Below are positions 1 to 29,017 of a DNA stretch of 32,000 nt, in pieces (positions within the stretch are counted from its first letter, which is position 1; every line of letters begins with the position of its first letter). The position numbers and the translations under genes are program-made. The DNA comes from an uncultured Chloroflexia bacterium (GTDB lineage Bacteria > Chloroflexota > Anaerolineae > Anaerolineales > Anaerolineaceae), in assembly GCA_963704755.1 (NCBI GenBank), contig OY969938.1, positions 3,810,001 to 3,842,000 of the forward strand, written 5' to 3'. The notes beneath the pieces are model-generated. The model was not told the DNA's origin and searched no databases. It saw nothing but the letters and a program-made list of their open reading frames with translations.

Positions 1-1591
1 ATATCTTGCCCATGCCCTCGCCGGCCAGGCCCCAGCCGGAGATGAACACGTGGCTCCAGGGCAGCTTGCCCAAATGATAGGCCGATTTGACGATAGTGTA
101 AAAGGCCCAGGTGCGGATGATTTCATGCGCCTGCGGGCGCATGGAGAAGGGAAAAACCTGACCGAACAGACCCGGATCGTCCTGCCAGCCGGAAACGATC
201 TGCGGGCTGAGGGAGGAAGTCGCCCAGGTGTCCATCACATCGGTCTCCGGCTCGAATTCAGACGAGCCGCACGAACAGTTTTCGGCTGGCGAGGCCTGAG
301 CCGGATCGACCGGCAGGCGGTCGGATGAGGCCAGAGTCGGCCGGCCGCATTTTTTGCAATACCAGAGCGGGAAAGGCACGCCAAAATAGCGCTGGCGAGA
401 GATGCACCAATCCCAGTTCAAGTTTTCCACCCAGGAACGGTAGCGCGCCCCCATATGTTCTGGGTGCCAGTGGATCTGCTCGCCGGCATCCAGAAAGGCC
501 TGGCGGTTTTCCAGCACGCGGATGAACCACTGGCGGGTAACGATCGTCTCGACCGGGGTATCGCAGCGCTCGTGAACCCGCACCGATTGGGACAGGCTTT
601 CGCGCTTGAGCAGCAGGCCGTTTTCTTCCAGCAGGGTCTTCATGCGGGCGCGAGCCTGGACGACCGTCAGCCCTTGCAGCGGCCCGGCGACCACCGTCAA
701 CCGCCCCTGTCGATCGATCGCCTCGATCAGCGCCAGGTGATGGGTGTACCACCAGGCTACGTCGGTCTGGTCGCCGAAGGTGCAGCACATGACTGCCCCG
801 GTGCCTTTGTGGGGATCGGCGGTCGGGTCGGCCAGGATGGGGACGGCCTGGCGGTAGAAGGGGGTCAGCGCCTGGCTGCCGATAAAGGCTTGATAGCGGG
901 TATCCTCAGGATGGACAAAGACGGCTACACAGGCGGCCAGCAGCTCGGGCCGGGTAGTGGCGATGGGCAGCAGCGAGCCATCCGGCAGGGTGAAGGGGAT
1001 GGTCACAAACTCGGTCTCGCGCTGCAAGTCCTCCAACTCGGCCTGGGCGATGGCGGTGCGGCATTCCGGGCACCACAGGCTGGGCGCTTCGCGCCGGTAT
1101 ACCAGATCCTGGCGGTACAGGTCCAGAAAGGAGGCCTGGGCCAGGCGGCGGGAACGTTCATCGATGGTGCGGTAGGTGTGGCGCCAGTCTATCGACCGCC
1201 CCAGGCGCTGCCACAGCGCGTGATATTCCTTTTCTTCTTCGTCGCTCACCTGGAGGCACTTTTGGATGAAATCCGTCCGGCCGACCTCGGCCGCCCGCAC
1301 GCCCAGGCGCTTTTCGACCAGGCGCTCGGTTGGCAGGCCGTTGTCGTCGAAACCCATTGGGTAAAACACGGCGTATCCCTGCATGCGTTTGTAGCGGGCG
1401 ATGAAGTCGGCCTGGCTGTAGGAATAAACGTGGCCAAGGTGCAGGTGTCCACTGACCGTCGCCGGCGGCGAATCGATGGAAAACACCGGCTTTCCCTGGC
1501 CGGGGTCGAACCGGTAGATGGCTTTTTCTTGCCAGTACTGCTGCAGGGCCGGCTCCTGCTCGGATGGGGTAAATCGTTTTGGTAAGGGCAT
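1..1591 (-). CDS. valS: valine--tRNA ligase, N-terminal ~530 codons (3' end lies beyond the window start)
   Basis: Manual minus-strand translation from ATG 1591-1589 gives MPLPKRFTPSEQEPALQQYWQEKAIYRFD...SIDSPPATVSGHLHLGHVYSYSQADFIARYKRMQGYAVFYPMGFDDNGLPTERLVEK (class I HIGH-type HLGH). Later it reads WDWCISRQRYFGVPFPLWYC and GMGKI at the window edge (start of the KMSKS region). GGAGG SD at 1600-1596 and a Val T-box upstream. It is absent from the ORF track only because the window truncates it. The + ORF 455..1585 is its antisense shadow. Confidence 0.9.
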   Translation of the reverse strand, partial: MPLPKRFTPSEQEPALQQYWQEKAIYRFDPGQGKPVFSIDSPPATVSGHLHLGHVYSYSQADFIARYKRMQGYAVFYPMGFDDNGLPTERLVEKRLGVRAAEVGRTDFIQKCLQVSDEEEKEYHALWQRLGRSIDWRHTYRTIDERSRRLAQASFLDLYRQDLVYRREAPSLWCPECRTAIAQAELEDLQRETEFVTIPFTLPDGSLLPIATTRPELLAACVAVFVHPEDTRYQAFIGSQALTPFYRQAVPILADPTADPHKGTGAVMCCTFGDQTDVAWWYTHHLALIEAIDRQGRLTVVAGPLQGLTVVQARARMKTLLEENGLLLKRESLSQSVRVHERCDTPVETIVTRQWFIRVLENRQAFLDAGEQIHWHPEHMGARYRSWVENLNWDWCISRQRYFGVPFPLWYCKKCGRPTLASSDRLPVDPAQASPAENCSCGSSEFEPETDVMDTWATSSLSPQIVSGWQDDPGLFGQVFPFSMRPQAHEIIRTWAFYTIVKSAYHLGKLPWSHVFISGWGLAGEGMGKI

Positions 1592-1602
1592 GGGACCTCC
1601 GT

Positions 1603-1760
1603 GGGGAAAAAGAGAGTAGAGAATAGTAAATAGAGAATGGAGAATAGAGAATAGAGAATGGTTCTTTGGTTGCGTCGCTACCTTATTGATTGATCGCCTC
1701 GTTGTCCGAATTACTAATTTCTATTTACTACTCTCTACTCTCTATTTTCTAATTTCTGCC
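1603..1760. repeat. foldback repeat element R1 (heptamer arms around a ~50-bp core)
   Basis: Seven tandem 7-bp units sit at 1612-1660 (GAGAGTA GAGAATA GTAAATA GAGAATG GAGAATA GAGAATA GAGAATG). Seven inverted units sit at 1711-1759 (TTACTAA TTTCTAT TTACTAC TCTCTAC TCTCTAT TTTCTAA TTTCTGC). 1612-1643 is complementary to 1742-1711 with a few mismatches. The 18-nt motif GAGAGTAGAGAATAGTAA (1612-1629) recurs in R2. Confidence 0.85.
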
Positions 1761-2104: not shown

Positions 2105-2167
2105 GAATCCCGAAAAAGAGGCATTTGCGGTGGCTTCGCCACCGCAAATGCCTCTTTTTCGGGATTC
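2105..2167. terminator. perfect 29-bp-arm hairpin, bidirectional intrinsic terminator architecture
   Basis: GAATCCCGAAAAAGAGGCATTTGCGGTGG-cttcg-CCACCGCAAATGCCTCTTTTTCGGGATTC, with no mismatch. The inner 16-bp stem is flanked by A5 upstream and T5 downstream on both strands. It lies between the VOC gene 3' end and the valS promoter. Confidence 0.8.
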
Positions 2168-2203: not shown

Positions 2204-2626
2204 TTATTTTCTAGAATCTCCTCTGAAAATCCATTGAACGCCAAATCGATCATAGAACTGGCCATACAATCCAAACGGCATGTCGTGCAACTCTTGAAAT
2301 CTCTCTTTTTCTGCTCCATCGGCAAGTTTGTCAAAGACTGTCTTCAATTCATCATAGGAGTTACCAACTACAAATATTGCAGACATGTTGCCCAGAATTG
2401 GATCGAAGGCGGGCGAAGCCATCCAATCTGCGGCAGAGATTTCAATATTTCCGCTGGTTAATTGGGCATTTATGATTCTGTCATGCTTTTCCACTGGAAA
2501 CTGAGCTTTCATGGGTGTGTCTTCGAGCCTGGTTAGGATGAGCTTTCCCCCGAGGCACTGGTGATAAAACGTCATTGCCTCCGCACAGTTTCCATCGAAT
2601 AGTAGAAAGGGAATACCTCGTAACAT
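2204..2626 (-). CDS. VOC/glyoxalase-fold family protein (PhnB/YjdN-like)
   Basis: 140-aa ORF. Its N-terminus IPFLLFDGNCAEAMTFYHQCLGG and C-terminal FGVQW resemble the 3-demethylubiquinone-9 methyltransferase-like/PhnB VOC family. The region looks locally lower in GC by eye. Confidence 0.7.
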   Translation of the reverse strand: MLRGIPFLLFDGNCAEAMTFYHQCLGGKLILTRLEDTPMKAQFPVEKHDRIINAQLTSGNIEISAADWMASPAFDPILGNMSAIFVVGNSYDELKTVFDKLADGAEKERFQELHDMPFGLYGQFYDRFGVQWIFRGDSRK

Positions 2627-2632
2627 TCTGCT

Positions 2633-2641
2633 ATTGTACCA
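2633..2641 (-). promoter_or_regulatory. extended -10 element (TGGTACAAT) 6 nt upstream of the VOC gene ATG (possible leaderless mRNA)
   Basis: Minus strand reads TGGTACAAT-GCAGAA-ATG. There is no SD between the -10 and the start codon. Confidence 0.4.
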
Positions 2642-2692
2642 AAAATGAAATTCCCAGGCTATACGTGGATTTCACTACCGACCTGTGCTAAA

Positions 2693-2845
2693 AAGGAGAC
2701 CCACGCAGGTGGGTCTTTGTGTATTTGTAGGTGCAGCTTTAGCTGCCACGGCCTTCGAAAGCCGGGCTTCGCGTGGGCTTATGCCTGCCGGCGACCGAGG
2801 TCGCTGCAACAAAAACACGAAGACCCACCTGCGTGGGTCTCAACC
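2693..2845. repeat. foldback (MITE-like) element, copy 1 inside the tandem array
   Basis: The ~40-bp inverted termini match at about 38 of 43 positions: AAGGAGACCCACGCAGGTGGGTCTTTGTGTATTTGTAGGTGCAGC vs the reverse complement of GCTGCAACAAAAACACGAAGACCCACCTGCGTGGGTCTCAACC. They include 20-nt palindromes at 2697-2716 and 2821-2840. Confidence 0.75.
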
Positions 2846-2982
2846 ATTTACGAGGAGCGCGACGTGACCCGGTTTTCAAAGGTGCGAGGACAGGAGAGGC
2901 TTGGACGGTGTAGCTCGGGTTTCGAACCCGAGAAAAGCGCCGGGGAAACAGTATCTCGTCTCCGGGGCCGACTTATGCTGAA

Positions 2983-3135
2983 AAGGAGACCCACGCAGGT
3001 GGGTCTTTGTGTATTTGTAGGTGCAGCTTTAGCTGCCACGGCCTTCGAAAGCCGGGCTTCGCGTGGGCTTATGCCTGCCGGCGACCGAGGTCGCTGCAAC
3101 AAAAACGCGAAGACCCACCTGCGTGGGTCTCAACC
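2983..3135. repeat. foldback (MITE-like) element, copy 2
   Basis: Identical to copy 1 except for one substitution (A to G in AAAAACACGA / AAAAACGCGA). Palindromes at 2987-3006 and 3111-3130. Confidence 0.75.
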
Positions 3136-3272
3136 TTTTACGAGGAGCGCGACGTGACCCGGTTTTCAAAGGTGCGAGGACGGGAGAGGTTTGGGCGGCG
3201 TTGCTCCGGTTTCGAACCCGAGAAAAGCGCCGGGGAAACAGTATCCCGTCCACGGGGCCGACTTATGCCGAA

Positions 3273-3330
3273 AAGGAGACCCACGCAGGTGGGTCTTTGT
3301 GAATTTGTAGGTGCAGCTTTAGCTGCCACG
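3273..3330. repeat. foldback element, truncated copy 3 (left terminus only)
   Basis: Matches the copy 1/2 left end through GCTGCCACGG with one mismatch (GTGAATTTG), then diverges. Confidence 0.7.
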
Positions 3331-3346
3331 GGCCAGTCCAGAAGGA

Positions 3347-3389
3347 CCGGGGTTTTTATTGGGTGCGAAGCACCCAATAAAAACCCCGG
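3347..3389. repeat. perfect 19-20-bp-arm hairpin just 3' of the VIT1-family gene
   Basis: CCGGGGTTTTTATTGGGTG(C)-gaa-(G)CACCCAATAAAAACCCCGG. The T-tract lies in the 5' arm and the A-tract in the 3' arm, so it is not a canonical stem-plus-U-tract terminator. Confidence 0.8.
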
Positions 3390-3426
3390 TTTCTCCATAG
3401 TAGCTGAGTTTTTACAGGCGTCTCAT

Positions 3427-4599
3427 TTATCCAACGACCGGCCCAAAAAGGATCCCCAGCCCGTAGGTGATTAGGGCTTCGCCCAGGCCGATGACGGTCA
3501 TTTCGCCACCACTCTTCCAGGGGCTCAGGCCGGTCACCACCGTCTTGGCGGCGCCGATCAGGAAGTGCGATAATGTGCTTATCCCGAAGGAAATGATGAT
3601 GGCCGGATAGCCGTGGGTGAAGAAGAACGGGATGATCGGGATGAAAGCACCTGTGGCAGTCGATAGTGTGGCCGAAATAGCCGCAACCCAGGGATTGGGG
3701 AAGGACTCTTCGGAAAGGCCCAATTCTTCGTTGCCCAGGGTTTTGAGCGCCGTCTCGGGTTGGGCGATCAGGTGAGCGGCCAATGTTTCGGCTTCTTCTT
3801 TGGGTACACCTTTGAGCTGGTAGAACAGGGACAGTTCTTCCTGCTCTTCTTCGGGGTGTTCCTGCAATTCCTCGCGCTCCCGGCGGAATTCGGCTTCCTG
3901 GACTTCACGCTCGGTCTTGGTGGCCAGGTAGGCACCCGAGCCCATCGACAGGGCCGAGGCCATCATGCCGGCCAGCCCGGCGATCAGCACGGCCGGCCCG
4001 CCGGCGGTTGCGCCGGCAACACCGGTGACGATCCCGAAGACCGAGCCCAGCCCGTCGTTAGCGCCGTAAATAGCCTGGCCGATCCAGCCGCCGCCGTGCT
4101 GGTGCCAGCTTTCGCGGTGCAGGATCGTGTCGAGCTGGGCCTGCGGGCTGCCGGCGATCGGGCCGGCGCTCATGGTGTTGTTTTTGTTCATGGCACCGCT
4201 GTGCATTTCTTCATCGTGCAGCACGGCCTTGACCGCGGCGCGGTCTTCTTCAGTCGGTGCGATGGCGGCCATATCCTCATACATTTCGGTGTCGTCATCT
4301 TCATTGCTCTCGATGCGCTTGAGGGCGTTATCGGTGCCACTCTGGACCAGCACCCAGCGCCAGACGCGTTCGCCGAGGGTTTCTTTTTCGGACGGGACTT
4401 TGGCCCCCAGTTCTTGCAGGCGTTTCGACCAGCGTCCACCGTGACCGCTCTCGGCTTCGGCCAGGCTGAGTAATACCTGCCGGCGGGCTTCATTGGTCTC
4501 TCGTTTGGCCAGGTCTTGATAAATTCGCTGGCTGGCGCGTTCTTTGCGTAATGCTATCTGTAAGCTTTTGATAAATTTAGATTGGTTGTTAGATTCCAT
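3427..4599 (-). CDS. VIT1/CCC1-family iron/manganese transporter with N-terminal ferritin-like (rubrerythrin-like) domain
   Basis: N-terminal ferritin-like helices (ERASQRIYQDLAKRE...EAESGHGGRW, HDEEMHSGA). The C-terminal membrane domain carries GANDGLGSVFGIVTGVAGA, typical of VIT1/CCC1. I start at ATG 4599 (MESNNQ), preceded by AGGAGAAG, rather than at the track's GTG at 4620. Confidence 0.8.
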   Translation of the reverse strand: MESNNQSKFIKSLQIALRKERASQRIYQDLAKRETNEARRQVLLSLAEAESGHGGRWSKRLQELGAKVPSEKETLGERVWRWVLVQSGTDNALKRIESNEDDDTEMYEDMAAIAPTEEDRAAVKAVLHDEEMHSGAMNKNNTMSAGPIAGSPQAQLDTILHRESWHQHGGGWIGQAIYGANDGLGSVFGIVTGVAGATAGGPAVLIAGLAGMMASALSMGSGAYLATKTEREVQEAEFRREREELQEHPEEEQEELSLFYQLKGVPKEEAETLAAHLIAQPETALKTLGNEELGLSEESFPNPWVAAISATLSTATGAFIPIIPFFFTHGYPAIIISFGISTLSHFLIGAAKTVVTGLSPWKSGGEMTVIGLGEALITYGLGILFGPVVG

Positions 4600-4643: not shown

Positions 4644-4689
4644 ATTATGAGGCGTTTGCGGGTCTATGGACCCGCAAACGCCTCATAAT
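4644..4689. repeat. perfect 21-bp-arm hairpin (TTTGCG...CGCAAA family)
   Basis: ATTATGAGGCGTTTGCGGGTC-tatg-GACCCGCAAACGCCTCATAAT, with no mismatch. Confidence 0.85.
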
Positions 4690-6754: not shown

Positions 6755-6962
6755 TTGGTAAAGAGAGAGTAGATAATAGTAATAAGGCGATAAGGCGATG
6801 AGGCGATGAGGCGATGAGGCAACGAGGAAATGAGGCGATAAGGCAACGAGGCGATAAGGCAACGAGGCGATAAGGCAATGAGGAACGAGGGTGTCACCTC
6901 ATTACCTCATTACCTCGTTGCCTTGTTGCCTTATTACTATTCTCTACTCTCCATTCTCTGCC
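6755..6962. repeat. foldback repeat element R2 (octamer array with heptamer-type arms)
   Basis: Thirteen tandem 8-bp units at 6782-6885 (ATAAGGCG, ATGAGGCG, ACGAGGCG, ATAAGGCA and similar). Five inverted units at 6897-6936 (CCTCATTA x2, CCTCGTTG, CCTTGTTG, CCTTATTA). The arms are GAGAGTAGATAATAGTAA (6765-6782) and TTACTATTCTCTACTCTC (6934-6951). Confidence 0.9.
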
Positions 6963-8879: not shown

Positions 8880-9008
8880 ATTAAATTAACGTCAATTCGG
8901 GATAAGAATTTTTTAGTGTGTTTTTATTCGTGGCGGCGCAGCCGCCACGAATAAAAACACACTAAAATTACCTTTCTTTTCTTTCATCCCGAATTCAAGT
9001 TAAATTAG
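8880..9008. repeat. nested palindrome containing a perfect 27-bp-arm hairpin (8911-8967)
   Basis: Core is TTTTAGTGTGTTTTTATTCGTGGCGGC-gca-GCCGCCACGAATAAAAACACACTAAAA, perfect. The outer arms are TTAAATTAACGTCAATTCGGGATAAGAA / TTCTTTCATCCCGAATTCAAGTTAAATTA, imperfect. Confidence 0.85.
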
Positions 9009-15702: not shown

Positions 15703-15757
15703 TTTCAGCGGATAAAAAAAGAAGCGGCCCAGCCGCTTCTTTTTTTATCCGCTGAAA
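15703..15757. terminator. perfect 26-bp hairpin, bidirectional terminator between convergent prmA and lspA
   Basis: TTTCAGCGGATAAAAAAAGAAGCGGC-cca-GCCGCTTCTTTTTTTATCCGCTGAAA. The inner GC stem is flanked by A7 and T7 on both strands. Confidence 0.85.
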
Positions 15758-17727: not shown

Positions 17728-19039
17728 TATGGCTTTCTCAAGAAAGGGATTTACCAGCCAGAAGGAGGGCAAAAGCCTGGGAGAGGTGGCCCTCGAACCA
17801 GCGGCGGCCTTTGGCAGCATTGGAAAAGCCTGCCCGCTTGAGCAAGCCAAGAATCAAATTATGAATAATTGCCAGGATTCTTCCGGCCGGACCAATCGTC
17901 ATTCGAGTGGCATCCTCATGAAACGTCACATCGCGACGATAATGCAGCCCAGTCTCAATTTGCCAGTGTTGGCGACGAATGCGGAGCACCTTACCCGGAG
18001 CAGCTTGCTTACGAGATAGGCTGGTAATGCCATACTCAACTTCACAGCTATTTCTGTAGAATTGACCCTGGCGCAACCAAAAAAACTTACGTTCCAGACG
18101 ATAAACCTGGCTCAACCCCGGCCAATCCAGATATTCATTCAGCATTTCACTGGTCTGGATGGCACGGATTTCCAGGCGACCGTGACCATAACTCACCTGC
18201 TTTGCAGTCTGGAAATCGGTCGCAATCTTGCCAAATCCAGGCTTAGGATGATCAGGAGCAAACAAGTCTTGGATGGCTTGATACATTTGGGGTTGATTTT
18301 CCTTGACCGGCCACAAATAATCCCCTTGGCCTTTGAGAATTTGTTCGGAAACGGCCCGTTGGGTGTGCATGGCGTCTCCGGTGACGATTTTCCCGGACAA
18401 ATTGACCCGTTCCAAGGCTTTAGGAGCTGCTACAATCTCGTTTTCCTTGTTTCCAACCACTTCTTGAACCTTGACTTGCTGGGTTTGGCCAGCATAAATA
18501 CTCAAAACATACTCACCGCAAAGTTCTCCACCAGCCCGTGTGCCTCGCAAGGCTTTGCCGTCCATGGCCAATGTTTCTCCACTTTCATCTGTATCCGACC
18601 GATGGTACGCTTCCATCAGTCGTTCAAACTCCTCTTCGCTGACAATATTCTGGAATACGCGTCGGTAAGTATTGTGATGGGGCATCCAACTTCGCTGCAA
18701 CCCCAATAACTGTGTCAACTCTTCTGCCTGGTTCTTCGCCCAATCGGCTATTTCCACCGGTCGATCTTTTCCGCACAGTTTCGCCAGAAAGATTAATACT
18801 AACAAGGTGACTAGGCTATACCGTTTCCCCTTCGCTTTGCGTGGATCATCTAGCCGTTGAAAATAGTCATACAAGCTCCCCAGCGAATACACAACCCCAT
18901 TTGCACTTTCTTCTTGCCACGGTTCCAGCGTGCTATACTCCATCTTGATCCTCCTCGGTTATTTTGGCTGTTTGGCGACACCAATTGTACCGAAGAGGGT
19001 CTTTTTGTCTATCTGTCAACCTTTCTTGAGAACGCCATA
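17728..19039 (-). mobile_element. ISAs1-family insertion sequence, 1312 bp, apparently intact
   Basis: The 20-bp terminal IRs are TATGGCTTTCTCAAGAAAGG (17728-17747) and CCTTTCTTGAGAACGCCATA (19020-19039), 19/20 complementary. They are flanked by a perfect 10-bp direct repeat GAGAGGCGTG (17718-17727 and 19040-19049). Confidence 0.9.
17738..18943 (-). CDS. ISAs1-family DDE transposase (H-repeat-associated type)
   Basis: N-terminal DDPRKAKGKRYSLVTLLVLIFLAKLCG, then MDGKALRGT, TGDAMHTQRAV and HWQIETGLHYRRDVTFHEDATR. These correspond to conserved blocks of ISAs1/YhhI-type transposases. Confidence 0.9.
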   Translation of the reverse strand: MEYSTLEPWQEESANGVVYSLGSLYDYFQRLDDPRKAKGKRYSLVTLLVLIFLAKLCGKDRPVEIADWAKNQAEELTQLLGLQRSWMPHHNTYRRVFQNIVSEEEFERLMEAYHRSDTDESGETLAMDGKALRGTRAGGELCGEYVLSIYAGQTQQVKVQEVVGNKENEIVAAPKALERVNLSGKIVTGDAMHTQRAVSEQILKGQGDYLWPVKENQPQMYQAIQDLFAPDHPKPGFGKIATDFQTAKQVSYGHGRLEIRAIQTSEMLNEYLDWPGLSQVYRLERKFFWLRQGQFYRNSCEVEYGITSLSRKQAAPGKVLRIRRQHWQIETGLHYRRDVTFHEDATRMTIGPAGRILAIIHNLILGLLKRAGFSNAAKGRRWFEGHLSQAFALLLAGKSLS

Positions 19040-19604: not shown

Positions 19605-19716
19605 GTAACTGCTCGGCCAAACGGGTAAGAACCCAGAATTTGAGGTGTTTGCGAGGGCGAAGCCCTCGCAAACACCTCAAATTCTGGGAATCTTTGATAG
19701 GAGCCTGAGTAGTTAC
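19605..19716. repeat. 112-bp nested-palindrome element, intact copy (perfect 27-bp-arm core hairpin at 19632-19688)
   Basis: GTAACTGCTCGGCCAAACGGGTAAGAA + CCCAGAATTTGAGGTGTTTGCGAGGGC-gaa-GCCCTCGCAAACACCTCAAATTCTGGG + AATCTTTGATAGGAGCCTGAGTAGTTAC. The termini are inverted. Confidence 0.9.
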
Positions 19717-19920: not shown

Positions 19921-19969
19921 TTTGAGTGTTTGTTTTGGGTGTCAAAGACACCCAAAACAAACACTCAAA
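19921..19969. repeat. perfect 23-bp-arm hairpin upstream of the PRTase gene
   Basis: TTTGAGTGTTTGTTTTGGGTGTC-aaa-GACACCCAAAACAAACACTCAAA. Confidence 0.85.
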
Positions 19970-20563: not shown

Positions 20564-20616
20564 CCCGAATTTAGGTATTTGCGGGGGCTTGGCCCCCGCA
20601 AATACCTAAATTCGGG
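20564..20616. repeat. perfect 25-bp-arm hairpin between the convergent PRTase gene and galK
   Basis: CCCGAATTTAGGTATTTGCGGGGGC-ttg-GCCCCCGCAAATACCTAAATTCGGG. Confidence 0.85.
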
Positions 20617-25126: not shown

Positions 25127-26368
25127 AAATGTTACCGGAGAATTCTTAACAATTGATTGACCTTTTTATTGATACTGGCCTGTAAGGACACAGGGTTCAG
25201 ATGAACATATTGGGCAGTAAGACTGGCCTTGACTTTCAGGGGAAGAGAGTCCTGGGCTAAGACCCGGCGATAGGGGGTCTTGGCCAGATCATACTTACGG
25301 ATCGTCTTGCCGTCAACGGTTTCTTTAGCAATCAGTTTGAGAACTGGCTGGAAAAAATTGATGTAAAGACGCAAATCGGAGTAAATGGATTTGAGCAAGG
25401 CAAGTTCTTGTGGGGTTTCGAAGCGGTCATAGCCAATGGTATGTCGAACAACCGACCAATTCTTCTGTTCCACATGAGCCTGATCATTCTTGTGGTAAGG
25501 CCGCGAACGCGTAAAGGTAATGAGTTCGCTCTGGCAGTATCGCAAAAGTGTATCGTTGATGAATTCACTGCCATTGTCTGAATCCAATCCCAAAAGAGGA
25601 AAAGGCAGGTTATGGCGCAATTCCTCAATGGCTTGAGAGACAGCTGTCTGGGTTTTGTTGGCCAGGCCCAGGCACTCGGTCCAGCCGGTGGCTAAATCGG
25701 TTGCAGTGAGGGTATTGAGGTAGGTACCCTCGGTGGTTGTACCACAATGGGCCACCAGGTCGATTTCCAGAAAGCCTGGCTTCTCGTCCTCCCAAGGGGT
25801 AAAGGTGCGGATGGGAATGGCTTGTTTGAGCAAACTGCCCGGTTTGGTAGTCCCAAGCCCACGTGGGGTGGGGGCGAGGCGTGCCTTTTTCAAACAGCGA
25901 TCTATGGTGGCCCGGCTCAAGCTCAACAAAAGCGCTTTGGTTTCCTCGCTCAACTCTATTTCCTGCCAGCGCTCTAAAACATCCACCATTTCAGGAATAA
26001 AAGGCTGTAGTCGTTTTGAGCAGATGCACCCACTAACTTCCCAAATCTTTTCCAGAGCCACGACGACTTCCCCGTTGTATTTCTTCCGTCGCCCGGCTTT
26101 CTTCAACCCCTTTGGCTTGGAACCATGCTTCAACAGCCGAATAGCGTATTTACGATGATATCCGCTTGTGGCGATAAATTCATCCAGAATCTGTTTCTTC
26201 TCGGCTTTCCTGGCTTTCAAATAGCGCGGACGAATGCTTTCTAGCATCTCCCGCCGACTGCGTTGACTCATCATGAGCTCCCTCTGCGGTGCTTTATTCC
26301 GCGTTAGGGTAACATTTATTTTGAGCCAACGTTATTTCGCAAAGTAAGATTAATTGTGAGGCAATTCG
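25075..26368 (-). mobile_element. insertion sequence with rve-type DDE transposase (IS481/ISNCY-like), about 1.29 kb
   Basis: The ~55-bp imperfect terminal IRs are at 25080-25136 and 26308-26363. Each holds two copies of a TGCCTCAAAATAAAATGTTAC-like motif. A candidate 5-bp TSD AAGGC sits at 25070-25074 and 26369-26373. The exact ends are uncertain by a few bp. Confidence 0.75.
25132..26274 (-). CDS. DDE integrase-core (rve) transposase
   Basis: N-terminal HTH region, then EIDLVAHCG (D), GLDSDNGSEF (D) and HVEQKNW (E), with about 35 residues between the second D and the E. Confidence 0.85.
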   Translation of the reverse strand: MMSQRSRREMLESIRPRYLKARKAEKKQILDEFIATSGYHRKYAIRLLKHGSKPKGLKKAGRRKKYNGEVVVALEKIWEVSGCICSKRLQPFIPEMVDVLERWQEIELSEETKALLLSLSRATIDRCLKKARLAPTPRGLGTTKPGSLLKQAIPIRTFTPWEDEKPGFLEIDLVAHCGTTTEGTYLNTLTATDLATGWTECLGLANKTQTAVSQAIEELRHNLPFPLLGLDSDNGSEFINDTLLRYCQSELITFTRSRPYHKNDQAHVEQKNWSVVRHTIGYDRFETPQELALLKSIYSDLRLYINFFQPVLKLIAKETVDGKTIRKYDLAKTPYRRVLAQDSLPLKVKASLTAQYVHLNPVSLQASINKKVNQLLRILR

Positions 26369-28906: not shown

Positions 28907-29017
28907 ATTACTGCTCAGCCAAACGGGTAAGAACCTCGAATTTGAGGTGTTTGCGAAGAATTCGTCTCCGCAAACACCTCAAATTTAGAAACTTCCTGCA
29001 AAGGACTGGGCAGTTAA
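28907..29017. repeat. 111-bp nested-palindrome element, slightly decayed copy
   Basis: ATTACTGCTCAGCCAAACGGGTAAGAACCTCGAATTTGAGGTGTTTGCGAAGA-attcg-TCTCCGCAAACACCTCAAATTT...GGACTGGGCAGTTAA. The left ~50 bp match 19605-19655 with only a handful of mismatches. Confidence 0.85.

What the first reader, a model, noticed from the sequence alone, without database searches (positions are those of the whole stretch)
2679..3330. Exact 290-bp tandem array of a nearly identical foldback element plus a diverged CU-rich spacer, which could be a multi-copy sRNA locus or a MITE-driven duplication
AAAAGGAGACCC starts at 2691, 2981 and 3271, an exact 290-bp period. Each unit is a ~153-bp foldback element plus a 135-bp spacer. 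The foldback's ~40-bp inverted termini contain the 20-nt palindrome AGACCCAC-GCAG-GTGGGTCT and its reverse complement. The two full units differ at 1 of 155 positions in the foldback part but at 11 of 135 positions in the spacer. So the two halves of one repeat unit have very different histories: recent insertion, gene conversion or selection on the foldback, against an older duplicated spacer. Hairpin A is followed by TTTGTGTATTTG on the + strand. Hairpin B is followed on the - strand by TCGTGTTTTTGTTG, so each spacer is bracketed by outward-facing terminator-like hairpins. The minus-strand version of the spacer is pyrimidine-rich with anti-SD-like runs (CCUCUCCUGUCCUCGCACC, GCUCCUCG) and ends at the B hairpin plus U5. 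This layout recalls multi-copy tandem regulatory sRNAs. The ORFs crossing the array (2645..3157, 3007..3474 and others) are Arg/Cys-rich and mutually overlapping and do not look coding. I could not find a convincing promoter, so the sRNA idea is only a hypothesis.
Basis: partly seen in the sequence, partly recalled or inferred. Interest (0 to 1): 0.7.

Follow-up and report, generated by a model that had tools for sequence, protein, structure and literature searches.

The report
Orphan tandem array of terminator hairpins
A 290-bp stretch of non-coding DNA between two genes of an Anaerolineae-type bacterium has been copied 2.25 times in a row; it is built around the same terminator-like hairpin in alternating orientation, has no relatives anywhere we could search, and most likely is an ordinary local duplication acting at most as a transcription stop, not a proven small-RNA or mobile-element locus.

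Summary
It is a 290-bp tandem repeat, 2.25 copies, at 2678-3331. It carries five identical copies of the palindrome AGACCCACGCAGGTGGGTCT in alternating orientation, each with a T-rich tail on one strand. The low-divergence tract is 2691-2891 (2/201 differences, against 12/89 elsewhere; permutation p=0.003) and runs 50 nt past the foldback.

- No Rfam family matched.
- No sigma-70-like promoter lies inside the array on either strand.
- The spacer RNA is no more structured than shuffled sequence.
- There is no target-site duplication and no other copy in the window.
- No relative turned up in GTDB genomes, JGI metagenomes, IMG/VR, plasmids or phages.
- Orthologous loci of the nearest relatives I could fetch lack the array.

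Best reading: a lineage-specific tandem amplification of an intergenic module made of inverted hairpin-plus-T-tail units, with an architecture like a BIME or REPIN cluster. One tract was probably later homogenised by gene conversion. The array sits between the VIT1 gene's terminator and the promoter of a probably horizontally acquired VOC gene, and would act as stacked two-way terminators. A tandem sRNA, a type-I-toxin-like small ORF and a low-copy mobile element remain unrefuted minority readings. Interest is low to moderate.

The parts
2678..3331 (.). Tandem array: 2.25 copies of a 290-bp unit (2678-2967, 2968-3257, and a partial third copy 3258-3331)
   Evidence: TRF; the repeat finder; alignment A1
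2695..2718 (+). Hairpin A1 (GGAGACCCAC-GCAG-GTGGGTCTTT) followed by GTGTATTTGT; terminator-like on the + strand
   Evidence: -16.2 kcal/mol
2985..3008 (+). Hairpin A2, identical to A1
3275..3298 (+). Hairpin A3; its tail carries one change (T to A at 3302)
2820..2841 (-). Hairpin B1: the same unit inverted. On the - strand it is followed by CGTGTTTTTG and is terminator-like
   Evidence: -15.7 kcal/mol
3110..3131 (-). Hairpin B2; its tail carries one change (A2817 in unit 1 is G3107 here)
2729..2808 (.). 80-nt interior of foldback 1. It contains four small hairpins and is identical to interior 2 (3019-3098)
   Evidence: z = -2.25 / -2.80 when folded with the T-rich tails
2842..2984 (.). Spacer 1; its homolog is spacer 2 at 3132-3274. 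They differ at 10-11 positions, and neither strand shows excess RNA structure
2691..2891 (.). Low-divergence tract, paired with 2981-3181: 2 differences in 201 nt. It starts at the A-tract of hairpin A and ends 50 nt past hairpin B
   Evidence: maximum-likelihood segmentation, permutation p=0.003
2892..2980 (.). High-divergence tract, paired with 3182-3270: about 11-13% different
2709..2867 (+). Candidate 52-codon ORF. AAGGAG at 2693-2698 lies 10 nt before the GTG start. The product is VGLCVFVGAALAATAF followed by a basic tail. A second copy lies at 2999-3157; the third copy is altered (V5E, different C-terminus). Probably a by-product of the T-rich/A-rich inverted repeat
   Evidence: codon score -0.14; no Pfam hit or homolog
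3346..3390 (.). Perfect palindrome (21-nt arms, 3-nt loop), 36 nt after the VIT1 stop codon and 14 nt from the right end of the array
   Evidence: -42.3 kcal/mol
2638..2646 (-). Extended -10 element TGGTACAAT of the VOC gene, with 5 bases (AGCAG) between it and the ATG. The mRNA probably has almost no leader, so the array lies upstream of this promoter and not in a 5' UTR
   Evidence: and direct reading
2204..2626 (-). VOC/glyoxalase (PhnB-like) gene, 140 aa, with atypical codon usage
   Evidence: score -0.013
3427..4599 (-). Gene for a VIT1/CCC1 iron transporter with a rubrerythrin-like N-terminal domain

Best explanation
The array is a local, lineage-specific tandem amplification of a 290-bp intergenic module.

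The basic building block is one 33-42-nt unit: an 8-10-bp GC-rich hairpin with loop GCAG, followed by a T-rich tail. It is present five times in strictly alternating orientation, separated alternately by an 80-nt and a 143-nt linker. This is the architecture of BIMEs and of tandem REPIN clusters on a larger scale.

Inferred history: unequal recombination or replication slippage between direct copies produced 2.25 units. The units then diverged by about 11-13%. A later gene-conversion event, or a few, re-homogenised a roughly 200-bp tract (2691-2891 with 2981-3181).

Inferred function: on the + strand the three A hairpins, and on the - strand the two B hairpins, act as stacked intrinsic terminators. 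They would insulate the VIT1 transcription unit from the VOC gene, which has its own promoter, and block antisense transcription in both directions. The array need not have any function beyond that.

Shown here: the anatomy, the terminator-like features, the divergence pattern, the absence of homologs, and the absence of promoters. Inferred: the order of events, the gene conversion, and actual termination.
For: - Repeat anatomy and alternating orientation of one asymmetric unit (stem, GCAG loop, T-tail).
- Terminator-like scores and stable hairpins.
- Position: the array lies between the VIT1 terminator palindrome (3346-3390) and the VOC extended -10 promoter at 2638-2646(-).
- No internal promoter.
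- Spacer RNA is unstructured, and its only hairpin shared by both copies acquires a mismatch in copy 2.
- No coding signal.
- The low-divergence tract 2691-2891 is asymmetric relative to the foldback and has arbitrary-looking end points, as expected of a conversion tract.
- Relatives with 85-88% identical VIT1 lack the array, and homology stops at the stop codon. The same holds at the start codon of the VOC gene in the one VOC-homolog locus fetched (83% protein identity).
- Published precedent for tandem reiteration of palindrome dimers together with their flanks: PMC3116915 (REPIN clusters, read), PMC3733652, PMC2817692 (abstract).
Against: - Termination was not measured. The U-tracts are interrupted (UUUGUGUAUUUGU; UCGUGUUUUUG), so efficiency is uncertain.
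- Zero changes across 5 x 20 nt of palindrome and 2 x 80 nt of interior could equally reflect purifying selection on something not recognised here.
- Gene conversion is inferred from only two and a quarter copies.
- REP/BIME families are defined by many dispersed copies, and no other copy was seen.
- The 2.25-copy number needs either a pre-existing 74-bp direct repeat or a later deletion.
Confidence: 0.5

Rival explanations
1. The foldback, or the single hairpin unit, is a low-copy mobile or REP-type element (MITE, REPIN or Correia/ERIC-like). Other copies would exist elsewhere in the 4.87-Mb genome, and this array would be one of its tandem clusters.
For: - Inverted termini of 33-42 nt flank an 80-nt core, giving a total of about 150 nt.
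- Each terminus is itself a palindrome, as in REP doublets.
- Tandem REPIN clusters that include flanking DNA are documented (PMC3116915; PMC3733652).
- The window does contain another dispersed palindromic family and two transposase genes, so this genome tolerates repeats.
Against: - No other copy lies in the remaining 31 kb, even with 3 mismatches allowed or by sensitive BLAST. That argues against a family of more than about 500 copies.
- Only single chance hits to the 20-mer, in unrelated taxa, were found in 185,579 species genomes and in JGI metagenomes; there were none in IMG/VR.
- There is no target-site duplication.
- GTAG is 11 nt from the stem in unit A and is GTTG in unit B, so the REP tag is not met.
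- No Y1/RAYT transposase is present in the window.
- The young tract overshoots the foldback by 50 nt.
Confidence: 0.17
2. The array is a multi-copy regulatory sRNA locus. One version is a CU-rich minus-strand RNA from each spacer ending at hairpin B plus U5, possibly released from VIT1 read-through. The other is a purine-rich plus-strand RNA ending at hairpin A.
For: - Terminator-like hairpins close the spacer on both strands.
- The 50 nt immediately upstream of hairpin B on the - strand, containing CCUCGCACC and GCUCCUCG, belong to the low-divergence tract.
- Tandem sRNA genes are a known kind, for example 12 copies of NsiR1 (PMC9045159).
- On the - strand the VIT1 palindrome is followed by CCUUCUGGACU, which by my reading is not a clear U-tract. 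Read-through into the array is therefore possible.
Against: - There is no promoter-like site in any unit on either strand. The region where a - strand promoter would have to lie is the most variable part of the unit, whereas each NsiR1 copy has its own conserved promoter.
- The spacer is no more structured than shuffles, and its predicted fold differs between copies.
- No Rfam family matched.
- There is no homolog in relatives or in any collection.
- The 80-nt interior, which such an sRNA would not need, is conserved as well.
Confidence: 0.13
3. Each unit is a type-I toxin-antitoxin-like module. It would consist of a 52-aa peptide with a hydrophobic N-terminus and a basic C-terminus (2709-2867, 2999-3157), whose Shine-Dalgarno sequence and GTG are locked in hairpin A, and a convergent antisense RNA ending at hairpin B.
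For: - AAGGAG-N10-GTG precedes the ORF, and two intact identical-length copies exist.
- 12 of the first 15 residues are hydrophobic, which passes the rule of at least 10 of 15. The length is under 70 aa, the C-terminus is polar, and the ORF is repeated in tandem in one intergenic region. These are the screen criteria of Fozo et al. 2010 (PMC2887945).
- The whole ORF lies within the low-divergence tract.
Against: - The hydrophobic-then-basic pattern follows automatically from translating a T-rich tail and then its A-rich inverted copy.
- The codon score of -0.14 is 3.4 SD below that of real genes.
- There is no Pfam hit and no homolog in 5.8 billion proteins.
- There is no promoter for the mRNA or for an antisense RNA.
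- Hairpin A plus its U-rich tail would terminate any transcript coming from upstream, before the ORF.
- There is 1 synonymous and 1 non-synonymous change, which is uninformative.
Confidence: 0.05

Closest known systems
BIMEs and tandem REPIN/REP clusters (E. coli BIME-2; Pseudomonas fluorescens SBW25 REPIN clusters; GTAG/CGTC REP dimers reiterated in tandem)
   Same: One short, oriented palindromic unit is repeated in alternating orientation at regular spacing. Pairs of inverted units can fold into one long hairpin. Whole dimers plus flanking DNA are reiterated in tandem. The location is intergenic, at gene ends (PMC2817692, PMC3116915, PMC3733652).
   Different: The linkers are much longer (80 and 143 nt, against 20-100 nt for most REP dimers; from my own knowledge, roughly 10-70 nt in BIMEs). 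No dispersed copies are known. There is no GTAG or CGTC tag at the foot of the stem, and no RAYT in the window. The units carry T-rich tails like true intrinsic terminators.
Foldback MITEs of bacteria (Correia elements of Neisseria, ERIC/IRU, RUP). The comparison is from my own knowledge, not tested against their sequences
   Same: Size of about 150 bp, long terminal inverted repeats, ability to form a long hairpin RNA, and terminator- or promoter-like ends.
   Different: Those elements are dispersed in tens to hundreds of copies with a target duplication (TA for Correia). Here the copies are only tandem, there is no duplication, and the low-divergence tract does not coincide with the element.
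Tandem multi-copy sRNA genes (NsiR1 x12 in Nostoc, PMC9045159; also PrrF1/2, LhrC1-5 and OmrA/B, from my own knowledge)
   Same: Direct repeats of a few hundred bp in one intergenic region, each ending in a hairpin plus a U-tract.
   Different: In those loci every copy has its own conserved promoter and the RNA is conserved in related species. Here no promoter, no conservation and no excess structure were found.
Tandemly repeated type I toxin-antitoxin loci (ldr-rdl LDR repeats, ibs-sib, zorO-orzO; PMC2887945)
   Same: A short ORF with a hydrophobic stretch and a polar C-terminus, duplicated in one long intergenic region. The ribosome-binding site is sequestered in a hairpin. An antisense RNA with its own terminator is possible.
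   Different: There is no promoter, no homolog and no coding signature. The ORF's properties are explained by the inverted T-rich/A-rich repeat.

Membership tests
REP / BIME / REPIN cluster | Short (20-40 nt) palindromic unit with an asymmetry that gives it an orientation | tested here: met
   A 20-nt perfect palindrome with an asymmetric GCAG loop and a T-rich tail on one side only. The 33-nt units are 91-94% alike in inverted orientation.
REP / BIME / REPIN cluster | Units regularly spaced in alternating orientation; dimers reiterated in tandem with their flanks | tested here: met
   The order is A,B,A,B,A with 80-nt and 143-144-nt linkers and a 290-bp period.
REP / BIME / REPIN cluster | Many dispersed copies in the genome (tens to hundreds) | tested here: inconclusive
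   There is no copy outside the array in the 32-kb window. No Anaerolineae hit appeared in the genome, metagenome or viral scans. The rest of the 4.87-Mb source genome could not be read.
REP / BIME / REPIN cluster | Conserved GTAG or CGTC tetranucleotide abutting the stem | tested here: not met
   In unit A, GTAG lies 11 nt 3' of the stem. Unit B has GTTG at that place (criterion from PMC3733652).
REP / BIME / REPIN cluster | Cognate RAYT (Y1 transposase) gene in the genome | not testable with these tools
   There is no PF01797-type hit among 30 window ORFs scanned. The remainder of the genome is not available.
MITE | Terminal inverted repeats | tested here: met
   33 nt at 94% ungapped, or 42 nt at 88% with a 3-nt gap.
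MITE | Target-site duplication flanking each copy | tested here: not met
   The flanks are ...AAAAG| and |AACCATTT (unit 1) and ...GAAAAG| and |AACCTTTT (unit 2), with no direct repeat.
MITE | Element boundaries coincide with the boundaries of the young (nearly identical) sequence | tested here: not met
   The low-divergence tract is 2691-2891. It overshoots the right end of the foldback (2841) by 50 nt (P=0.024).
Tandem multi-copy sRNA genes | A promoter in every repeat unit | tested here: not met
   No -10/-35 or extended -10 match lies inside 2678-3331 on either strand under relaxed criteria. Caveat: an E. coli-type consensus was applied to a Chloroflexota-type genome.
Tandem multi-copy sRNA genes | Intrinsic terminator at the 3' end of each unit | tested here: met
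Tandem multi-copy sRNA genes | Discrete transcripts | not testable with these tools
   No expression data are available.
Tandem multi-copy sRNA genes | Conserved sequence or structure in related genomes, or membership of a curated RNA family | tested here: not met
   Rfam gives nothing at gathering thresholds and only sub-threshold hits, mostly to eukaryotic/viral miRNA precursor models. Relatives lack the region. Spacer z-scores are about 0.
Type I toxin-antitoxin (tandem-repeat class) | ORF of 16-70 aa with at least 10 hydrophobic residues in a 15-aa stretch and a polar C-terminus, repeated in tandem in one intergenic region | tested here: met
   VGLCVFVGAALAATAF has 12 of 15 hydrophobic, followed by a basic tail. 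There are two intact 52-aa copies (criteria from PMC2887945).
Type I toxin-antitoxin (tandem-repeat class) | Evidence that the ORF is coding (codon usage, homologs, purifying selection) | tested here: not met
   The codon score is -0.14, against 0.385+-0.154 for real genes. There are no homologs and no Pfam hit. Changes are 1 synonymous to 1 non-synonymous.
Type I toxin-antitoxin (tandem-repeat class) | Toxin mRNA and antisense sRNA transcripts; toxicity | not testable with these tools
   No promoters were found, and there are no expression or phenotype data.
Integron attC / cassette array | R'' (RYYYAAC) and R' (GTTRRRY) core sites at the ends of an imperfect palindrome | tested here: not met
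   Direct reading: neither core motif occurs at the foldback ends. The arms are perfect local palindromes, unlike attC sites.

The most novel reading that the evidence does not exclude
The 201-bp low-divergence tract (2691-2891 and 2981-3181) is kept identical by selection and not by gene conversion. It would be a previously undescribed, lineage-restricted gene module present in two copies. It would combine a 52-aa membrane-active peptide, whose ribosome-binding site and GTG start are locked in hairpin A, with a convergent CU-rich antisense or 3'UTR-derived sRNA ending at hairpin B. That would make it a new type-I-toxin-antitoxin-like or tandem-sRNA family in Chloroflexota.
Probability: 0.08. 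Interest if true: 0.55.

Novelty: new member of a known kind. Interest (0 to 1): 0.25.

Why it matters
If the best reading holds, this is one more example of how bacterial intergenic palindromes grow into ordered arrays by local duplication and gene conversion. It comes from a phylum (Chloroflexota, Anaerolineae-type) where such elements are hardly described. It would be useful as an annotation note and as a natural set of stacked bidirectional terminators, but it would not change any concept. It would matter more if transcript data showed that the conserved 200-bp module is expressed. That would add a new small-RNA or small-toxin family in a poorly studied lineage, and would explain the zero divergence of the hairpins and the 80-nt core.

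Tried and rejected
- **Known RNA family:** Rfam at gathering thresholds over the whole window gave 0 hits. At E<=10 over 2550-3450 it gave only sub-threshold hits, mostly to miRNA precursor models and all far below their gathering scores. ARAGORN found no tRNA or tmRNA, despite a T-loop-like UUCGAAA hairpin on the - strand.
- **Homologs of the palindrome:** the scans returned 5 single hits in GTDB species genomes, 4 single hits in JGI metagenomes and 0 in IMG/VR. All hits extend no more than 25 nt; the named GTDB hits are in unrelated taxa (Atopobium, Burkholderiales-type, Planctomycetota).
- **Interior and spacer 20-22-mers:** none in IMG/VR.
- **Whole unit:** no match against plasmids or phages in distant BLAST mode.
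- **Spurious-ORF trick:** translations of five array ORFs on both strands, joined into one query, gave nothing at E<=1 against 5.8 billion proteins.
- **Synteny:** VIT1 loci of relatives (88%, 86% and 85% identity) and one locus of a VOC homolog (83% identity) were fetched. Homology ends exactly at the gene borders and there is no array. The source genome's own records were not retrievable.
- **Coding repeat:** rejected. 290 is not a multiple of 3, the codon scores are non-coding, and about 7 of 10 changes in the open frame from GTG 2864 alter the amino acid (read by eye).
- **DGR template/variable repeat:** rejected. The changes are not adenine-specific on either strand (one search list).
- **attC/integron array:** rejected, because the core sites are absent.
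- **CsrB-like GGA sponge on the + strand:** by my own count there are 6 GGA in about 170 nt, against roughly 3 expected from base composition. That is not convincing, and there is no promoter.
- **Ancient inverted relationship between spacer and interior:** the local alignment is not convincing (p=0.04 and 0.69).
- **MITE derived from the two IS elements in the window:** no similarity to them.
Full report
**1. The observation**

The region was read directly. Tandem Repeats Finder reports a single long-period array at 2678-3331: period 290, 2.3 copies, 95% matches, no indels. The repeat finder gives units 2678-2967 and 2968-3257 at 95% identity, and a third partial copy of 74 nt at 3258-3331.

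The palindrome AGACCCACGCAGGTGGGTCT occurs five times without a mismatch (2697+, 2821-, 2987+, 3111-, 3277+). It occurs nowhere else in the 32-kb window even with three mismatches allowed, and shuffles give 0.00 expected.

The inverted arms are 33 nt at 94% ungapped, or 42 nt at 88% with a 3-nt gap. The loop GCAG and the T-rich tail lie on the same side in both orientations. So A and B are true inverted copies of one oriented unit of the form GAGACCCACGCAGGTGGGTCTTYGYGWWTTTGT. They are not merely two palindromes.

**2. Divergence pattern**

Units 1 and 2 differ at 14 of 290 positions, 10 of them transitions. One difference falls in the 147-nt foldback and 13 in the other 143 nt (Fisher p=0.0007).

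A maximum-likelihood two-rate segmentation places the low-divergence tract at 2691-2891 (2/201), against 12/89 for the rest (permutation p=0.003). The tract starts at the A-run of hairpin A but extends 50 nt beyond hairpin B. At the rate of the variable part (10.8%), one or fewer differences in those 50 nt has P=0.024.

The boundary, however, is not the boundary of the foldback. Within the foldbacks, the only two changes (2817 A/G; 3302 T to A in the third copy) fall in the T-rich or A-rich tails and are not compensated.

**3. Context**

The array fills most of an 800-nt gap between two minus-strand genes.

- **Right flank.** A VIT1/CCC1 iron-transporter gene with a rubrerythrin-like domain lies at 3427-4599. 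It is followed after 36 nt by a perfect palindrome with 21-nt arms at 3346-3390 (-42.3 kcal/mol). The array ends 14 nt from that palindrome.
- **Left flank.** A 140-aa VOC/PhnB-like gene lies at 2204-2626. Its ATG lies 5 bases (AGCAG) downstream of an extended -10 element, TGGTACAAT (2638-2646, minus strand). The mRNA therefore probably has almost no leader, and the array lies upstream of this promoter, not in a 5' UTR.
- **VOC origin.** The VOC gene has atypical codon usage for this genome: score -0.013, against 0.25-0.47 for most genes. Its best homologs, at 78-84% identity, include Gemmatimonadota proteins. It was probably acquired horizontally.
- **Host.** The host is Anaerolineae-like. 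The named VIT1 homologs (74-76% identity; the closer ones carry no taxon name) are from Anaerolineales or Anaerolineae, and the identical protein sits on a 4.87-Mb contig. The rest of the window is ordinary chromosome: hrcA-grpE-dnaK-dnaJ-prmA, lspA, galK, tsaE and others, plus two transposase genes.

**4. What it is not**

*Known RNA family.* Rfam gives nothing at gathering thresholds and only sub-threshold hits, mostly to miRNA precursor models. No tRNA or tmRNA was found.

*Coding sequence.*
- The period is not a multiple of three.
- Every frame across the array scores as non-coding: -0.11 to -0.24, against 0.385+-0.154 for 52-codon pieces of real genes.
- No ORF has a Pfam hit at E<=10.
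- A query joining five array ORFs from both strands found nothing at E<=1 among 5.8 billion proteins.

*Promoter-bearing repeat.* The standard scan finds no promoter-like site inside the array. A relaxed scan (at least 4/6 in the -10 with A2 and T6, and at least 3/6 in the -35 or an extended TG) finds only the VOC promoter and one site at 3402 outside the array.

*Structured spacer RNA.* Spacer copies fold no better than dinucleotide shuffles on either strand (z = 0.11, -0.82, +1.38, -0.49). The two copies get different minimum-energy structures. The one hairpin they share (CUCGGGUU/AACCCGAG) acquires a C.C mismatch in copy 2.

**5. Relatives**

- The 20-mer has only isolated hits extending no more than 25 nt: five in 185,579 species genomes (the titled ones in unrelated taxa), four in JGI metagenomes, and none in IMG/VR.
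- The whole unit has no match in plasmids or phages.
- Interior and spacer probes found nothing in IMG/VR.
- Loci encoding VIT1 proteins 88%, 86% and 85% identical, and a VOC protein 83% identical, were fetched. DNA homology stops exactly at the gene borders, the neighbouring genes differ, and no array is present.
- The source genome's own records could not be retrieved. It therefore remains unknown whether other copies exist elsewhere in that genome.
- Zero extra copies in 31 kb argues against a family of more than about 500 copies, but not against a low-copy one.

**6. Mechanism**

The hairpins are good candidates for intrinsic terminators.
- Hairpin A on the plus strand: 10 bp, -16.2 kcal/mol, tail UGUGUAUUUGU.
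- Hairpin B on the minus strand: 9 bp, -15.7 kcal/mol, tail CGUGUUUUUG.
- Hairpin A read on the minus strand also has a short U-run (CCUUUUU in copy 1).

The array is therefore a stack of three plus-strand and two or more minus-strand stops between the VIT1 unit and the VOC promoter.

This architecture is one oriented palindromic unit in alternating orientation with two alternating linkers, reiterated in tandem together with its flanks. [quoted passage not shown]

I therefore read the locus as a local tandem amplification by unequal recombination or slippage. Divergence followed, and then one or a few gene-conversion events restored identity over about 200 bp. The asymmetric, arbitrary-looking end points of the identical tract fit conversion better than a later insertion of the foldback into older spacers.

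The order of events, the conversion, and real termination are inferences.

**7. Rivals**

*(a) Low-copy mobile or REP-type element.* The terminal inverted repeats and the size fit. There is no target duplication, no GTAG/CGTC tag at the stem, no RAYT in the window and no other copy, and the young tract does not coincide with the element.

*(b) Tandem sRNA.* The terminators fit, and the 50 nt upstream of hairpin B on the minus strand (with CCUCGCACC and GCUCCUCG) are in the conserved tract. There is no promoter, and the place where one would have to lie is the most variable part of the unit. By contrast, the 12 NsiR1 copies each have their own promoter (PMC9045159). A VIT1 3'UTR-derived RNA ending at B2 is possible, because the VIT1 palindrome lacks a U-tract on the minus strand.

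*(c) Type-I-toxin-like ORF.* AAGGAG-N10-GTG opens a 52-codon frame in units 1 and 2: VGLCVFVGAALAATAF followed by a basic tail. The frame is altered in unit 3. It formally passes the tandem-repeat screen of Fozo et al. (PMC2887945). However, the hydrophobic-then-basic pattern is what translation of a T-rich tail and its A-rich inverted copy must give. There is also no coding signal, homolog or promoter.

**8. Verdict**

Nothing found here lifts it above a BIME/REPIN-cluster-like local duplication of terminator hairpins.

Novelty: a new member of a known kind. Interest 0.25.

The most novel reading not excluded is an expressed, selected 200-bp sRNA or small-toxin module. I give it about 8%.

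Noticed in passing
window 2105-2167, 3346-3390, 4644-4689, 8911-8967, 15703-15757, 19632-19688, 19921-19969, 20564-20616, 28939-28985: Nine long palindromes (arms 21-30 nt, loops 3-5 nt; eight perfect, one 95% complementary) sit at or near gene ends. That is far longer than ordinary terminator stems. Only some have terminator polarity (A-run 5', T-run 3'); others have the T-rich half first. Five share a core like GAGGYRTTTGCGRGGGC.
   Followed up: partly
window 19608-19683 and 28910-28985: A 76-nt dispersed direct repeat (84% identity) that includes one of the long palindromes. It is evidence for a REP-like dispersed family in this genome, unrelated in sequence to the array hairpin.
   Followed up: no
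window 1606-1757 and 6765-6951: Short-unit tandem repeats ((AGAGAAT)n; (AGGCGATG)n) each face a run of their own complement 23-85 nt away. They form large imperfect foldbacks (52-55-nt arms, 73-84% complementary) in intergenic DNA. The second one creates a spurious N-terminal extension on the aldo/keto reductase ORF.
   Followed up: no
window 2204-2646 (- strand): The VOC/PhnB-like gene has an extended -10 element (TGGTACAAT) with only 5 bases (AGCAG) between it and its ATG, so its mRNA probably has almost no leader. Its codon usage is atypical for the window (score -0.013), and its close homologs include Gemmatimonadota proteins, which suggests horizontal acquisition. The source annotation appears to call a shorter, 123-aa product, whereas homologs are 140 aa.
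   Followed up: partly
window 17738-18943 (-) and 25132-26274 (-): Two transposase genes (DDE_Tnp_1 with DDE_Tnp_1_assoc; rve integrase core) lie among housekeeping genes. Neither shows similarity to the array.
   Followed up: partly
L008 5968-6147 (the same VIT1 gene is carried by L009, whose contig ends 11 nt after the gene): In a relative (VIT1 85% identical), the DNA right after the VIT1 stop carries a 126-130-bp direct repeat of a CATTGCGAG...CGAAGCAATC motif, and both contigs end 11-207 nt after the gene. This is a non-homologous repeat at the equivalent position.
   Followed up: no
window 455-1585 (+) / 258-788 (-): A high-GC (63%) stretch has long overlapping ORFs on both strands and no Pfam hit for the ORFs tested. 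The true gene content here is unclear.
   Followed up: no
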